Assembly: GCA_043381765.1 (NCBI GenBank)
Contig: JBHJMP010000891.1
Coordinates: 1 to 34,850, forward strand
Origin: Collodictyon triciliatum
Taxonomy: Eukaryota
DNA: 34,850 bases
Direction of reading: 5' to 3'
Made by a program: the position numbers and the translations under genes. This document shows, in pieces, positions 198-9,100 of this stretch. Below the pieces are notes generated by a model. That model had not been told where the DNA came from, made no database searches, and was given only the letters and a program-made list of their open reading frames with translations. Position 1 is the first letter of the stretch. Each line of letters opens with the position of its first letter.

Positions 198-3100
198 CTA
201 TGGTTCGTATCCTGCGTTTAAGCGAGGTGATGATGCGATGGTGTGGGAGGAAACGGGATTAATCTCTTGTTCGCTGAGGATGAGGCTGCCATCGTCGAAG
301 GAGGGCGATAGACCAAGTTCTTGGCGTCTTCGTCTCTCGGCGGCCTTTTTCCATTGACGAAACCGTCGCTGTATCAGAAGTGCAGCCATCGAGTGGTTGA
401 CCTGGAGGAATAAAAGGGTGATCAGAAGTAGGCAGATAAGTAATCATGCAGAAAAGTTAAAAATGATAATAAAAATAGGGCGAGTGTGTGGGTTACAAAG
501 GGTCCTATGAAGTATTGTTGGCTGGGCTTCATGAGAGATTCGTTTTTTTCTCTCGTGATTTAGTTCCGCTCGGTTTATAAGTGGAGTGCAAACCATAATT
601 CCATCATTTTTCAGCTTCGTAAGGTTGGGAAAGGCGCGTTTACACATCCTCTCAAGGTCGTCTCTAACTTTGCTCTCAGGAAGGGTGAGATAGTTATGGA
701 TGAATAACAAGATTGTCATTATTATTATTATTGTTATTTTCTTGCATTCATCCCATTCGAAGTAATTGATTGTATCTGGTTAAAGGATATTCAACAGCTC
801 CATAAAGACGTTTTGTCAGGGCGGATAAGACCTCCAGGAAGTGGACTCTGCCCTAATGCCATATTCGTTTAAGAAGGACACATCAAATAAAGCACATTAT
901 ACAACTAGGTGACTCATTATCACTCATATTTTGGATTCAGATTATGTACCTCATGATCAGGAATTTGGACATTGCTCATGAAAACCAGCATTTCTTTCTT
1001 CGAAGAGTCTGATTTGGAGGTTAATTATGGTTTATAAAACAATCACATTAGTGTGACTACAGCGTGCTAATTAAAAAAAATAATTGAGGTTTGATAATTT
1101 GAAAATAAGAATAAGAATAAGAATAAGAATAAGAATAAGAATAAGAATAAGAAAAAGAAAAAGAAAAAGAAAAGTAACAGAAAAAAAACAAACTTGATCC
1201 TAGAGGGGGACCAACTATACGCAAAAGTTTTTCCAGCATATCCTATATACATATGTATGTGTTTTCTTGGATTTAAAATGCAAATATATACCAAACAAGG
1301 ACAACAAACTTTGAAGGAAATTATATTACTGTATAGGAGTAAAATAAAGAAAAAATATTATTATATATAACACAATATTCGATTAATAAACTACCGTTGG
1401 AATCATACTAGGGTCTGCTGGATTTGCAATATTCGTCCAAACCCGACAAAACCTATATACATTCGATAAAGTGAGTTTGTGTTTATGATTACGCGTTGCC
1501 TCTGGCAATAAAAAAAAGTAGCAATAATAATATCAAATAAATAAATAATAAATCTGTTGTCTTACTCTTCGACATGCTCTTCTTTAAGCACTGCGTTGTC
1601 CTCCTGCGATGCAACATCAAAGTTTTCCAAGATGACGGCTAATTTGATAATTATTTAAAAACAATATAGATATTCGACAAAAATACCTATTGCCTATAAA
1701 AATCTATGAGTGCGATATCACCTGTGTATATATTAATCATCACGAGAGCTGCTGTGAGGCAATAAGTTGTGAAGAATACGGCCGCTAGTATCTGATTTCC
1801 ACATGTCCCTTCCTCATAGCTACAGTCCGGAGGTTTCACTCCGCAGGAGGATTGTATGCCCGACCAGTTGTCAAAAGTTATCACCCTAAGAATGTAACGA
1901 TCGAAATTGCATTAGCAGCCAAGTCAGGGGCGACTTTTGAGGGTTATTGTATGGAGTTGACAATGTAATTTTTCGTGGTTGTTGTTTTACCTGAATAAAG
2001 TAAGAAATGACCGGTAGAAGGATGAGAAATTGGCATGGTTGTCTATGGCTCCAATAGAGTGTGCAACTTGACCAAAAAGGGACATCCCGATGACGGAGTA
2101 AATAAATATAATAAGAAATAGCAACGCTGCAATATTTGCTAACGATGGAAGGGAGTACCTATGTGCACGTGTTAAAAAAAATTAATTACATTCTGTTGTG
2201 AAGAAATTACTCAAAAGACATCTACCACTGAAAGTAATACATGCATAAATAAAGGTAGTAGGCGGAAAAAAAGTGAAGAAAATAAACAAGAATGAGGATT
2301 ATTTAAACATGAAGAATAGGAAACAACAAACATAAGTGTTCGGAACAGTTTGTTGAGTGTCTTCATCGAACGAACTAATTTGAATACTCGAAAGACCCGA
2401 AAAACGCGGAACACACGCATTACAGACATATTGATGGGAACACTCGAATTGGAAAACCGCAAGAGCACATCTAGCATATTGTGTTATGAAGATGAAAAAA
2501 ATTGTAACTAATCTACACTTCAGCTACTTGACTTATTTTTTTACATATGTATATAAAGATGATTTTTTTTCAGTACTAAACAAATGCTACCTATCAAGGA
2601 TATAAAAACAATGAAAAAATCGAACAAGTTCCACGATTCCTTAAAGTACATTCTTCCATATGCAGAAATCTTGATAATTGCCTCGATCAGGAACAGAAAA
2701 GTGAAAAGGGTGTCGAATGTATCTATGAGCAATTTTTATGTTAAAATAGAGTAGATAATGCCCAAGGAGAATCAACAAAGTGATCAAGGGATTCATAATT
2801 AATCATCACACAAGTGAAGTATCATACACCATAAAAAAATCACTTAAAACTGAATTCCATTGTCCTGACTGATCTTGATGTTGACAAGCCATCGATATGA
2901 TGTTCAAAAGTATTAACAAAGCAGACAGTTTTTCAAACGTTGTTGTACTATAAGAGATGGAAAAGTTGATAGGGAAATTATGAGATGATATATAATAGTC
3001 GAGCGACAGATACAGCCAATCTCCTTACATTTGGATTGTCTAGCTACCTGATAAGTTTGAAGCAGGCTTTTCGAATCGGATTATTGGGGCGTTTGTATTG

Positions 3101-6100: not shown

Positions 6101-9100
6101 TGCTCGAATGGGCAGATCTTCTGAAGGCGAAGAGGAAAATTGAATTATTTTTTTTTATTATGCCTATTCATAAATGTGCACTCCCTAGGATCTACACATG
6201 TTCAGAAAATTGAGCCAAAATATTTGACAAATAAATTAGAACAAACATAGATGACTTGCTCTTGTTTAATTTATGCAGTTCCCCACTCAACGATGAAAAA
6301 TTGTTGATCAATATGGCAAGAAACAGATACAGAATAACATCTAGTTGAGAAGGGTATATTTTGTATTAAGACATGAAAGGCTGGATTATCTGAATGAATT
6401 TGAAAAATAAGGAGAAAACAGGCATATGACATGATAAAATATAAATAATGAATGTTGACCGCAAAATCATACAGTTTCCAAAAAGCATGAGGATGATAAA
6501 GTAAACAGCAGCGACGGAGCTGGTAGCTTTCATACAACCGTACATTAAGGATGTCCACCCCTGTCCGGTGAGAACCTATATCAAGTTTTTTTTCGTTTTT
6601 TGTTGTTGTTAGCGGCTCTTCTACTGATTAAAGGACTGGAGAAAAAAATGGGGAGGGAATTATTGAAACTCGTTCATGGTATTGATTTTGAAGAAGCCAA
6701 ACCTGAAACACAGTGACCATCGATGTTAGAAATGTGTCAAAGTTTGGGTAATATTCGTGAGAGTCAAGTTTACCGCCAAAAAATTGCATGCCAACTAGTG
6801 CAAACATCGTCTATATGACAATAGTAGGAATGGTACAAGTTAATTTTGATGATTCCACAGTTTCTCCGATAATAAGGATAAGAAAAACAAATGGTAAAGA
6901 ATAAATTATGTCTTAGTCTTAAGAAAATAAATGATCTGGGGTAAATGAATAAAAATCACCATGAAAATTAGTAGCACCCAAACAAGATTTGCCACTGTCG
7001 ACAAGCTCTTTAGAATGATGGCTGCCAATATCCTTAAAGAATCTAAAGCCCTACGAGATAAATAAAGGTATTGTTTGCGAGTGAGATTCACAGATGCGAA
7101 ATGAAAGAGTTTTATGTAAATAAGAATGACTGATTACTTGAACAGTTTCAGTACTCGAGTTACTCTGATTAGTCGAAATAACCGAAGAACACTCAAGAAC
7201 CCTTGACCAACCAGCCATAGTTCAACAACAGACAGTATGCTGATGATTCCGTCGAATATGTTGAACTAAATGTCAAAGACAATGTTATACGCACGTAAGA
7301 AACGGCAAAATGTTCAATTCAGTCGAATTGATGAAGTATGTTCTTCTTAGCATATAACCCGTGATGTTTTTTTTTTTAAAAAAAAAATTAGTTGAAAATT
7401 GTATTGACTGTATTTTATTGTAAATTTATATTCAAAAAAAGAGTGCACCATTATGGCCAAATTAGAAAAAAAAATAGAAATTAATTACAGTATCTTTGAC
7501 GTAGTCTCGAAAACCCATCGCAGTGATTTTAAGTACCATTTCAAGGAAAAAGAAGTAGGAAAAAAACTCGTTTCCGTTTGCTGCATCATTCATGAATGAA
7601 TGAGTGTGAGTTTCAGGAAACATACTTTGTAAAAACGTAAAGAATTTCTTGTTCACGTATGGCTCATGTGTATCATTTTGTTCACCTAGAGAAGTTTGAA
7701 GGTCCTGAGAGGCGCTGGGGGTTTGGAGAGCAAGGAAGATTGAATTGATAACAATTATAATCAATACAATCTTGGAGAACATCGGATGATAAACGATCTA
7801 GAACAAGAATTCAACATAAGAAAATAATGACCCAAAGAGAAAGGTAAAGCTAAACATTTCTTTGATTATATTTTTCCCTGGTTTCATGTAAAAAAGAAAA
7901 GAACAGAAGATAAGGGCTCATACACACCTTGTGGCATAAAACAACCAATCGGTTATCACTGCGGGGGCTTAAATATTCTGTTAAGTTCTCGCTTGAAAGA
8001 ATCCTAAGGAATGAAAAAAAATATTTTTTTTTTGTTACTAGGTACACTTGCTTTCACTTGATTTCTCTATATACATGACAGCGATGAATTTATCTTCATA
8101 AAGTCTTAAATGTTGAAAGACAAGGAAGAGAGAAAAACCTTGTTCCTTCTGAGACCGAACCAGAGTCACTCACTTTATTAAAAGAAAAATATTTAATTGC
8201 GTATCAAATCGAGGTAGTGGCTTATATTTAAAACTGGTACGTATGAAAATCCTGTTGCATCGTAGAGATAATTTAAACAAAAGGTATCGTACCGTCTTTT
8301 TTCGATTTACTGAAGGAATACGTAATTGCTGCGAGGGCTAAGTTGATCATAAAAAAAGCTGTAATCATCACCAAGCATATAAAATATATAGCTGCAAAGG
8401 GTGCGGTTGAATCCATGGTCTATAATATATTGTTTTCGACATCAGCTAGATTATTCAAAGTTAAGGCCAAACTGTTATTACTTGAGAATCATTTATGGGC
8501 TGGACAAAGGATGTGAAGGTTCATAATACTTTATCAGGATACAACACATCAAGCAATTCGAATGTGAGGAACAATCAGATACCTGATACATCACTTGGGA
8601 CCAATTGTCGAGGGACATGACTCGAACCATAATGATAAATGTGGACCCAAAATTATCAAAGCTGGTAAACCCCATGTCAGGATTTCGTGAAGTGGTGATA
8701 CACTCCCATCCTTTATTGGATAGAGGTACACCATATATATTTCCATGTTAACTTAACAATTACCAACATTTATTGTAAAAATATAATATTCAAAAACATG
8801 TCAATGATGAGAAATACCAAAGAGATATTTTAATCTAGTTTTACCTATGTCACATTTCCGGGCGGTTATTGAAGTTCCACATAGGAACGTCTCGTCTGAG
8901 ATTTCACCTTTAAAAAAAAATAAAGTTCTTTAATATAAAATAAAAAAAAAGCTACAACATGTTTTTTTTTCTCAATATTACATGATTACTTTGCCAAAGT
9001 TTTAGTGGGAACCTGTTTCAATATTTCTACATCGATTGCGCAGTGAGCCACCAAAAAGCTCCATACCGAGTATACCAAAGAATGAAAAAATGAACAAAAA

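What the first reader, a model, noticed from the sequence alone, without database searches (positions are those of the whole stretch)
1870..8609. Four-domain voltage-gated channel with an atypical D/Q/D/D selectivity ring
Seen: at the T/S-x-X-x-W filter position the four pore loops read SLDNW (GAC 8609-8607), TGQGW (CAG 6563-6561), TFDDW (GAT 3696-3694) and TFDNW (GAC 1872-1870). Known rings are Nav1 DEKA, Nav2 DEEA, Cav1/2 EEEE, Cav3 EEDD, NALCN EEKE/EKEE/EEEE and CatSper DDDD; fungal Cch1 has its amide in domain I. The domain II glutamate is nearly invariant among Nav/Cav channels, and here it is a neutral Gln with three short Asp side chains. All four S4 helices are fully charged and the frame is intact, so this does not look like decay. 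Inference: a protist channel lineage with its own permeation chemistry, probably Ca2+-permeable or weakly selective. I do not recall this ring being described, but could not search.
Basis: partly seen in the sequence, partly recalled or inferred. Interest (0 to 1): 0.88.

Follow-up and report, generated by a model that had tools for sequence, protein, structure and literature searches.

The report
Protist voltage-gated channel with Gln pore residue
An intact, expressed four-domain voltage-gated cation channel gene of a little-sampled protist carries a glutamine where almost all relatives, including its two closest ones, carry an acidic residue in the pore, so its ion preference may differ from theirs, but the single base behind this could not be checked in independent reads.

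Summary
On the minus strand, 198-11982, lies a 43-exon gene for a 1732-aa four-domain voltage-gated cation channel. The four filter codons sit exactly where stated. They align to the filter Glu/Asp of solved Cav channels. All four S4 segments are charged. RNA-like contigs of two runs are spliced at six of its introns.

The nearest relatives are two paralogues from Diphylleia rotans, at 50.5% and 44.1% identity. Both have the ring D/E/D/D, with the same domain I, III and IV motifs. D/Q/D/D is therefore a one-base change (GAG to CAG) in this one gene, not a lineage signature.

Gln in domain II is rare. Among 105 other full-length channels, domain II reads E 91, D 11, S 2, G 1. The same loop has also lost the Asp at +4 that both paralogues keep.

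No read or contig shown to me covers the CAG codon, so error or allele is not excluded.

The three-protein clade is sister to the Nav family with moderate support.

Function is inferred: voltage-gated and cation-permeable, with weaker Ca2+ binding than the D/E/D/D relatives.

The parts
198..11982 (-). Whole gene model: 43 exons, 1732 codons plus stop. Four-domain voltage-gated cation channel.
   Evidence: Exons were set by eye and checked by script. There are 40 GT-AG introns, 1 GA-AG intron supported by RNA contigs, and 1 GA-AG intron that is my guess. The model aligns end to end with P0005 and P0155. Pfam Ion_trans matches 9 of 10 exon translations tested.
8583..8710 (-). Domain I pore-loop exon. 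Filter codon GAC (Asp) at 8607-8609, motif SLDNW.
6703..6810 (-). Domain II S5 end and first pore helix exon, ending ...MVTVFQ|gt.
   Evidence: tblastn with P0155 gives 57% identity.
6473..6575 (-). Domain II pore-loop and S6 exon. Filter codon CAG (Gln) at 6561-6563, motif VLTGQGW. Position +4 is Ser, where both Diphylleia paralogues have Asp.
   Evidence: No RNA contig covers it.
3652..3786 (-). Domain III pore-loop exon. Filter codon GAT (Asp) at 3694-3696, motif TFDDW. A second Asp sits at +1.
1722..1885 (-). Domain IV pore-loop and S6 exon. Filter codon GAC (Asp) at 1870-1872, motif TFDNW.
9334..9424 (-). Domain I S4 exon (6 Arg/Lys).
   Evidence: The X3 contig is spliced on both sides of it.
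7138..7265 (-). Domain II S3-S4 exon (6 Arg/Lys in S4).
4264..4377 (-). Domain III S4 exon (7 Arg/Lys).
2332..2470 (-). Domain IV S4 exon (7 Arg/Lys).
3048..3295 (-). III-IV linker, two exons (3230-3295 and 3048-3130). It holds an H-T-L-L-T stretch at the place of the Nav IFM/MFM inactivation motif.
   Evidence: Alignment. The same L-L-T stretch is present in many protist channels, so it is not specific to Nav.
198..401 (-). Last exon, with an IQ-like motif (LLIQRRFRQWKK) and the stop codon.
   Evidence: Seen by eye and conserved in P0005 and P0155. Pfam gave no hit for this exon at E <= 0.01.
9167..9333 (-). Non-canonical GA..AG intron between the domain I S4 exon and the S5 exon.
   Evidence: An X3 contig skips 167 bases here, with one base of ambiguity. 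There is no in-frame GT donor.
10766..11982 (-). Putative exons 1-2: G+C-rich (64%), His/Ser-rich N-terminus. The start codon is uncertain. Only the last ~25 codons of exon 2 are conserved with P0155.
   Evidence: No RNA support.

Best explanation
This is an intact, transcribed gene for a four-domain voltage-gated cation channel of a protist. Its nearest sampled relative is the freshwater flagellate Diphylleia rotans. It groups with one of two Diphylleia paralogues, and that clade has a D/E/D/D selectivity ring.

In the window's gene the domain II Glu has become Gln. The change is one base, GAG to CAG. The Asp four residues further on has become Ser. This leaves three carboxylates plus one amide in the ring and an uncharged outer position.

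Shown: gene structure, expression and splicing of parts of the gene, homology, the ring residues, and the charged S4 segments.

Inferred:
- Depolarisation moves the four charged S4 helices and opens the S6 gate.
- Cations pass a filter that still binds and passes Ca2+. Its net ring charge of -3 matches the Ca2+-permeable D/E/E/A channels.
- Divalent affinity, and so Ca2+ over monovalent selectivity, is lower than in the D/E/D/D relatives.
- The III-IV linker (L-L-T) and the C-terminal IQ-like motif may serve fast inactivation and calmodulin regulation.
For: Gene and frame:
- The 43-exon model has one terminal stop.
- It aligns end to end with P0005 and P0155.
- Ion_trans matches 9 of 10 exon translations.

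Expression:
- Contigs in X1 and X3 are mostly 99% or more identical to the window. Between them they are spliced at six introns of the model.

Ring:
-.

Relatives:
- Local phmmer of the model against 150 fetched proteins gives P0005 1474.6 bits; the next best gives 839.
- P0155 is 50.5% identical and P0005 44.1%.
- Both are Diphylleia rotans entries of EukProt.
- Their rings are SLDNW/TVEGW/TFDDW/TFDNW and SLDDW/TAEGW/TFDDW/TFDNW.

Trees:
- (window, P0155) has support 94, 98 and 94. The three-protein clade has 100 in all three trees.

A second charge loss in the same loop argues against a lone base error:
- Domain II +4 is Ser, against Asp in both paralogues.

Functional analogies from papers:
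- Single substitutions of one ring Glu in Cav1.2 weaken Ca2+ block 10-50 fold but leave a conducting channel. Replacing all four with Gln abolishes high-affinity binding (PMC2233694, passages).
- CaV4/DSC1 channels with D/E/E/A also have three negative ring charges, and they carry Ca2+ or Ba2+ (PMC10983803, passages).
Against: - No independent read or contig shown to me covers 6561-6563. The Gln rests on this assembly alone.
- No relative closer than 50% identity was found, so conservation of the Gln cannot be tested. The searches were: which found only two unrelated G+C-rich channels.
- The functional statement is analogy from distant channels, where Glu rather than Asp forms the ring. Nothing here measures permeation.
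- Two exon junctions are unresolved (10/11 and 41/42). The N-terminal exons are unsupported.
- One X3 contig differs from the window at 9102, which would give Leu424Pro in S5. Single-base differences between data sets therefore do occur in this gene.
Confidence: 0.6

Rival explanations
1. The C at 6563 is an assembly or base-calling error, or a rare allele. The organism's channel would then have the clade's D/E/D/D ring and nothing would be unusual.
For: - CAG and GAG differ by one base.
- Both closest relatives have Glu.
- The finding was picked because it is odd, which enriches for errors.
- No independent cover of the codon was shown.
- An RNA-like contig differs from the window elsewhere in the gene (9102).
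Against: - 43 exons read through without a frameshift or internal stop. This speaks for good base accuracy.
- The same loop carries a second, independent loss of charge (Asp to Ser at +4), and Gly where the relatives have Ala or Val at -1. The loop as a whole has diverged.
- The RNA-like contigs are mostly 99% or more identical to the window where they overlap it.
Confidence: 0.1
2. The Gln is real and, with the uncharged +4 positions, has turned the channel into an essentially monovalent or non-selective cation channel. That would be a route away from Ca2+ selectivity different from the Lys of Nav1 and NALCN.
For: - Acidic residues at positions 0, +1 and +4 of the four loops number 4 in the window. 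They number 8 in P0155 and 6 in P0005 (counted).
- Domain II is acidic in 102 of 105 other channels.
- Quadruple Gln rings in Cav1.2 lose divalent permeation (PMC2233694, passages).
Against: - Three Asp remain in the ring, plus one at +1 of domain III.
- D/E/E/A channels with the same ring charge are Ca2+-permeable or even Ca2+-selective (PMC10983803, passages).
- Single ring substitutions in Cav1.2 weaken Ca2+ binding but do not abolish it (PMC2233694, passages).
Confidence: 0.2
3. The gene is drifting towards loss of function, or serves as a non-conducting voltage sensor. The Gln would be an early sign of relaxed constraint.
For: - The Gln is private to this gene.
- The I-II linker and the vestibule charges are reduced compared with the paralogues.
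Against: - The frame is intact over 1732 codons.
- All four S4 charge ladders are kept.
- Identity to P0155 is 60-61% over the roughly 950 well-aligned columns.
- The end branch (0.36-0.41) is about as long as that of P0155 (0.33-0.38) in the trees.
- Spliced transcripts are present.
Confidence: 0.05

Closest known systems
Two uncharacterised four-domain channels of Diphylleia rotans (EukProt EP00002 P018406 = P0155, and P014058 = P0005)
   Same: - Same architecture and length.
- 50.5% and 44.1% identity, alignable end to end.
- Identical filter residues, and motifs differing at one flanking position in one paralogue, in domains I, III and IV (SLD[N/D]W, TFDDW, TFDNW).
- Same III-IV linker stretch and same IQ-like motif.
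- Clade support is 100 in three trees.
   Different: - They have Glu (T[A/V]EGW) at the domain II filter position and Asp at +4. The window has Gln and Ser.
- The window has a shorter I-II linker and an unrelated His-rich N-terminus.
- Neither Diphylleia protein has been studied, as far as my searches show. One search found 2 papers holding 'Diphylleia' and 'ion channel'; by their titles neither is about such channels (search listing only).
Nav family in the wide sense (Nav1 D/E/K/A; Nav2/DSC1/CaV4 D/E/E/A; holozoan homologues)
   Same: - Sister group of the window's clade in three trees: local SH-like 98 (FastTree), SH-aLRT 86 and 94.
- Asp in domain I.
- In the Diphylleia proteins, also Glu in domain II.
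- Three ring carboxylates, as in D/E/E/A.
   Different: - The window's clade lies outside the Nav clade, not inside it.
- Its domain II loop has the Cav-like length (T-x-E/Q-G-W), not the one-residue-shorter C-G-E-W.
- Domains III and IV are Asp, not Glu/Lys and Ala.
- Its pore exons score best against Cav3 or Cav1 in PDB, not against Nav.
T-type Cav3 channels (E/E/D/D)
   Same: - Asp in domains III and IV.
- The domain IV motif T-x-D-N-W is shared.
- Cav3 chains are the best PDB hit for the domain I, II and IV pore exons.
   Different: - Not in the Cav3 clade in any of the three trees.
- Domains I and II are Asp and Gln, not Glu and Glu.
- The I-II linker is only about 45 residues, so it leaves no room for the long Cav3 linker with its gating brake (the gating brake is recalled, not tested).
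- An IQ-like motif is present.
Engineered ring mutants: Cav1.2 single Glu substitutions and QQQQ; Cav3.1 DEDD/EDDD/DDDD
   Same: They show what neutralising or shortening one ring residue does:
- Weaker Ca2+ block with conduction kept (PMC2233694, passages).
- Altered gating in Cav3.1 DEDD (10.1101/626069, abstract).
   Different: These are laboratory mutants of animal channels. The window's D/Q/D/D is a natural combination that none of the papers I saw tested.

Membership tests
[quoted passage not shown] | Four homologous repeats, each with S1-S6, in one polypeptide | tested here: met
   The model aligns over all four repeats with P0005 and P0155 and with 105 other full-length channels. Ion_trans matches 9 of 10 exon translations; 7 score above the curated 25-bit cut-off.
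[quoted passage not shown] | Arg/Lys ladder in S4 of the repeats | tested here: met
   6, 6, 7 and 7 Arg/Lys in the four S4 segments.
[quoted passage not shown] | Pore loop T/S-x-[selectivity residue]-x-W between S5 and S6 of each repeat | tested here: met
   All four loops align to the filter of solved channels.
Diphylleia-type D/E/D/D clade (unnamed) | Falls inside the clade in a phylogeny | tested here: met
   Support 100 in FastTree and in two IQ-TREE quick trees. The window pairs with P0155 at 94, 98 and 94. A careful bootstrap search did not finish.
Diphylleia-type D/E/D/D clade (unnamed) | Ring D/E/D/D | tested here: not met
   Domain II is Gln. Domains I, III and IV agree.
Nav family (D/E/K/A, D/E/E/A) | Placement inside the Nav clade | tested here: not met
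   Sister to the Nav clade, not inside it. The Nav clade itself has support 100 without the window's clade.
Nav family (D/E/K/A, D/E/E/A) | Domain II loop C-G-E-W (one residue shorter), domain III Lys or Glu, domain IV Ala | tested here: not met
   The window reads TGQGW, TFDDW and TFDNW.
Nav family (D/E/K/A, D/E/E/A) | Hydrophobic triplet plus Thr (IFM/MFM-T) in the III-IV linker | tested here: inconclusive
   H-T-L-L-T aligns there, but the same L-L-T occurs in non-Nav protist channels such as P0035, P0019 and P0014.
Cav3 / T-type (E/E/D/D) | Placement inside the Cav3 clade; ring E/E/D/D | tested here: not met
   The Cav3 clade (support 100) excludes it. Domains I and II differ.
NALCN / Cch1 clade, including the CRuMs channels reported as its sister (PMC12412391, passages) | Placement with NALCN/Cch1 in a phylogeny | not tested
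Indirect evidence: none of the best 120 hits to P0005 that carry a name is called NALCN or Cch1. NALCN chains score below Cav3, Cav1 and Nav for the domain I and III pore exons, and below Cav3 for domains II and IV.
CatSper (D/D/D/D) | Pore formed by four separate single-repeat subunits | tested here: not met
   Here the four repeats lie in one gene. CatSper1 was only a marginal PDB hit, E 0.52.

The most novel reading that the evidence does not exclude
The Gln is real and fixed. Together with the loss of the outer acidic residues in domains II and IV, it makes this a voltage-gated channel that carries mainly monovalent cations. That would be an independent, Lys-free escape from Ca2+ selectivity, and it would have arisen in the sister lineage of the animal Nav family, in a deep-branching protist.
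Probability: 0.15. Interest if true: 0.75.

Novelty: new variant of a known kind. Interest (0 to 1): 0.45.

Why it matters
The ring of four pore residues is the main determinant of Na+ versus Ca2+ choice in this superfamily. The domain II position is acidic in 102 of the 105 other channels sampled here.

This gene offers a natural channel with Gln at that position next to close D/E/D/D paralogues. That is a ready-made pair for asking how much one carboxylate in domain II contributes when the ring is built from Asp.

The clade's position beside the Nav family, in a lineage near the base of Amorphea, also bears on what the ring of the Nav ancestor looked like.

Against this, odd rings in protist channels are already known to be common. 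The key base is also unverified.

Tried and rejected
- **Independent check of the CAG codon.** I then laid 5250-10380. X1 and X3 have depth 0 over 6454-6797. The X2 contig shown to me covers 6344-6501 only. 135 rows of that table were not shown, so cover of the codon is unknown.
- **Closer relatives.**
  - The search for homologous proteins with the domain IV pore exon, lengths 'longer': 3 candidates, none scored.
  - Representative search with exon 35: 150 listed of 1160 hits. No fragment was more than 58% identical to the model.
The second gave 2 loci, L001 and L002, of 66% and 56% G+C. They hold unrelated channels and were no help.
- **Whole genome.** None is held.
- **Earlier notes of this scan.** None.
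- **Taxon of the window.** A 317-aa SNF2 helicase reading frame gave best hits of only about 40% identity, to animals and fungi. The organism is not placed by this.
- **Careful bootstrap tree.** Not finished after 607 s. Only SH-like supports are reported. Two alignment runs timed out.
- **Literature.**
  - 'DQDD' with 'selectivity filter': 0 papers.
  - 'DEDD' with 'selectivity filter' and 'calcium channel': one paper, on engineered Cav3.1.
  - Figure 3 and the supplementary tables of PMC5824947, which list the rings of 277 channels, could not be seen. I cannot say that the ring is absent from them.
- **Considered and rejected.**
  - An alternative domain II pore exon: none found.
  - Membership of Cav3, despite the best PDB hits: the trees exclude it.

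
Full report
**What is in the sequence**

The minus strand of 1-10500 and of 10400-13300 holds a long series of short open segments. They are separated by A+T-rich introns of 80-497 bases, median 126. I set the exon borders by eye and checked them by script.

The result is 43 exons from 11982 down to 198, giving 1732 codons with a single stop at the end.
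- 40 of the 42 introns are GT-AG.
- One is GA-AG and is supported by a spliced contig (see below).
- One (exon 10/11) is a GA-AG guess of mine.
- The junction 41/42 was modelled as GT-AG, but it probably misses about five residues when compared with the relatives.
- The first two exons are G+C-rich (64% against 42% for the rest) and code for a His/Ser-rich stretch. They are unsupported, apart from the last ~25 codons of exon 2, which are conserved.

**Check of the observation**

- GAC at 8609-8607 in SLDNW.
- CAG at 6563-6561 in TGQGW.
- GAT at 3696-3694 in TFDDW.
- GAC at 1872-1870 in TFDNW.

The FQ|VLTGQGW junction is a canonical intron (6702-6576) in phase 0.

Each pore exon, searched alone against PDB sequences, aligns its residue to the selectivity residue of solved channels:
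- Domain III Asp to the Glu of Cav1.2 TFEGW.
- Domain II Gln to the Glu of Cav3.1 TQEDW.
- Domain I Asp to the Glu of Cav3.3 TLEGW.
- Domain IV Asp to the Asp of Cav3.1 TGDNW.

The S4 segments carry 6, 6, 7 and 7 basic residues. Pfam Ion_trans matches 9 of 10 exon translations tested. A tblastn with the closest relative shows every hit on the minus strand inside a model exon. There is no second domain II pore exon and no second copy in the window.

**Expression and the one thing not confirmed**

No run holds most of the stretch. I laid four runs on 5250-10380.

Two small runs guessed to be RNA (X1, X3) contain contigs that are mostly 99% or more identical to the window. Between them they skip six introns of the model:
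- 5532-5663
- 5724-5822
- 7581-7685
- 9425-9682
- 9817-10086
- a 167-base intron at 9166/7-9332/3, whose ends on the coding strand are GA..AG

The gene is therefore transcribed and spliced.

These contigs have depth 0 over 6454-6797. The only DNA contig over that region that was shown to me spans 6344-6501. The CAG codon thus rests on this assembly alone.

One X3 contig differs from the window at 9102, which would change Leu424 to Pro. Single-base differences between data sets do therefore occur in this gene.

**Relatives**

A full HMMER scan of 1.84 billion representatives with the 55-residue exon 35 gave 1160 hits, of which 150 were listed.

I scored the whole spliced model locally against these 150. 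One protein stands out: P0005 at 1474.6 bits, against 839 for the next. A word-based search with P0005 then found a second, P0155.

Both are EukProt entries of Diphylleia rotans.
- The model is 50.5% identical to P0155 and 44.1% to P0005.
- The two paralogues are 46% identical to each other.
- No fragment in the collection is closer than 58%.
- A metagenome scan gave only two unrelated G+C-rich channels.

**The ring in context**

In an alignment of the model with 107 full-length hits, only the model has Gln in domain II.

In the second alignment, the 105 other channels read as follows:
- Domain II: E 91, D 11, S 2, G 1.
- Domain I: E 76, D 23, other 6.

The two Diphylleia proteins read SLDNW/TVEGW/TFDDW/TFDNW and SLDDW/TAEGW/TFDDW/TFDNW, that is, D/E/D/D. 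The window's ring is therefore the clade's ring with one change, and CAG is one base from GAG.

The same loop has a second loss of charge. Position +4 is Ser in the window and Asp in both paralogues. Domain IV +4 is Gly against Glu in P0155. Counting positions 0, +1 and +4 of the four loops, the window has 4 acidic residues, P0155 has 8 and P0005 has 6.

Non-acidic residues in domain II exist elsewhere: P0048 has Asn; P0039 and P0109 have Ser. The literature already describes a great variety of rings in protist channels (PMC5824947, section 4 read; its Figure 3 and supplementary tables were not visible to me).

**Phylogeny**

All trees were built on well-filled alignment columns.

| Tree | Rows | (window, P0155) | With P0005 | Sister to Nav clade |
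|---|---|---|---|---|
| FastTree | 106 | 94 | 100 | 98 |
| IQ-TREE quick, site-heterogeneous model | 53 | 98 | 100 | 86 |
| IQ-TREE quick, two long rows removed | 51 | 94 | 100 | 94 |

The Nav clade here comprises the D/E/E/A and D/E/K/A channels of animals and holozoans. A careful bootstrap search did not finish.

The pairing with one of two Diphylleia paralogues implies that the duplication is older than the split between the window's organism and Diphylleia. This is my reason for calling the source a relative of that lineage. A helicase gene of the window did not help to place the organism.

Caveats:
- The four filter columns were not removed from the trees.
- The rows came from searches with exon 35 and with P0005.
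A link to the NALCN/Cch1-like CRuMs channels reported in PMC12412391 (passages read) was therefore not tested directly.
- None of the best 120 hits to P0005 that carry a name is called NALCN or Cch1. NALCN chains score below Cav3, Cav1 and Nav for the domain I and III pore exons, and below Cav3 for domains II and IV.

**How it most likely works**

Shown:
- An intact, transcribed four-repeat channel.
- Full S4 charge ladders.
- Canonical pore loops with the ring Asp/Gln/Asp/Asp, plus an extra Asp at +1 of domain III.
- A III-IV linker with L-L-T at the place of the Nav inactivation motif.
- A conserved IQ-like motif in the C-terminus, seen by eye. Pfam gave no hit for that exon.

Inferred: a depolarisation-activated cation channel. 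Its ring keeps three carboxylates. That is the same ring charge as the D/E/E/A channels, which carry Ca2+ or Ba2+ (PMC10983803, passages). I therefore expect Ca2+ to permeate.

Single substitutions of one ring Glu in Cav1.2 shift Ca2+ block 10-50 fold without abolishing conduction. Four Gln abolish high-affinity binding (PMC2233694, passages). I therefore expect weaker Ca2+ binding and lower Ca2+ over monovalent selectivity than in the D/E/D/D paralogues.

An engineered D/E/D/D ring in Cav3.1 changes gating (10.1101/626069, abstract). Ring changes may therefore also affect kinetics. None of this is measured here.

**Rivals**

- (a) The C is an error or a rare allele (0.1). The intact 43-exon frame and the second charge loss in the same loop argue against it. 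Nothing excludes it.
- (b) The channel has become essentially monovalent or non-selective (0.2). This is the most novel reading.
- (c) Decay, or a non-conducting sensor (0.05). This is unlikely, given the intact frame, the kept S4 charges, a branch about as long as that of P0155, and spliced transcripts.

**Novelty and verdict**

It is a new variant of a known kind. It belongs to an uncharacterised clade of four-domain channels that is so far represented only by two Diphylleia transcripts. It carries a naturally occurring Gln at a position that is acidic in 102 of 105 sampled relatives.

I found no paper naming D/Q/D/D. This is a weak negative, because ring tables in figures and supplements were not searchable.

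The lineage's chemistry is D/E/D/D, and the Gln is private to this gene and unverified. Interest is moderate.

Noticed in passing
window 9167-9333 (-); also 8004-8288 and about 675-795: A GA..AG intron is supported by a spliced contig of X3. There is no in-frame GT donor at that place. Two further junctions (exons 10/11 and 41/42) cannot be made with GT-AG without losing residues that the Diphylleia relatives have. The organism may use non-canonical splice sites fairly often.
   Followed up: partly
window 5389-5886 (-): One X1 contig splices out 5724-5822 but keeps the neighbouring intron 5532-5663 and runs on into the next intron. X3 splices 5532-5663. The X1 contig looks like a partly processed transcript.
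   Followed up: no
runs X1 and X3: Two runs of one study are labelled as different organisms (A and B). Both hold spliced contigs of this gene at mostly 99% or more identity. They may be the same or very close organisms, or there may be a shared contaminant or prey. I did not pursue this.
   Followed up: no
window 10700-12200: The 5' end of the gene lies in a G+C-rich island (up to 57% per kb; exons 1-2 are 64%) within a genome region of about 33-36% G+C. It holds CAC/AGC repeats that read as His-Ser and His-Asn runs. It is unclear whether this is coding N-terminus or promoter/5' UTR.
   Followed up: partly
window 4760-5130; 1-60; 13070-13200; 14380-14560; 23450-23560; 33260-33400: Many long microsatellites. 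There is (CT)n at the window start, and several trinucleotide runs elsewhere.
   Followed up: no
window 16123-17073 (-) and about 23261-23480 (+): Neighbouring genes. One is a SNF2-family helicase reading frame, with best hits of about 40% identity to TTF2/HLTF-like proteins of animals and fungi. The other looks, by eye, like the catalytic end of a phosphatidylinositol 4-kinase.
   Followed up: partly
L001 246-482 and 4966-5193; L002 641-877 and 3893-4081: Two G+C-rich metagenome contigs encode other four-domain channels with non-acidic or odd pore loops (ITLTGW, ILTLENY, ILNLENW, ATLNGY). They are further examples of ring diversity in uncultured eukaryotes.
   Followed up: no
proteins P0048, P0039, P0109, P0008: Other channels with neutral ring residues: P0048 (metagenome) reads Q/N/D/-; P0039 ([Myrmecia] bisecta) reads E/S/D/D; P0109 reads S/S/D/A (S/S/D/G in the second alignment); P0008 reads Q/E/E/E.
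   Followed up: no
window 9102: An X3 contig (depth 4.8) reads G where the window has A. This would change Leu424 to Pro in domain I S5. It is probably a contig error or a polymorphism.
   Followed up: partly
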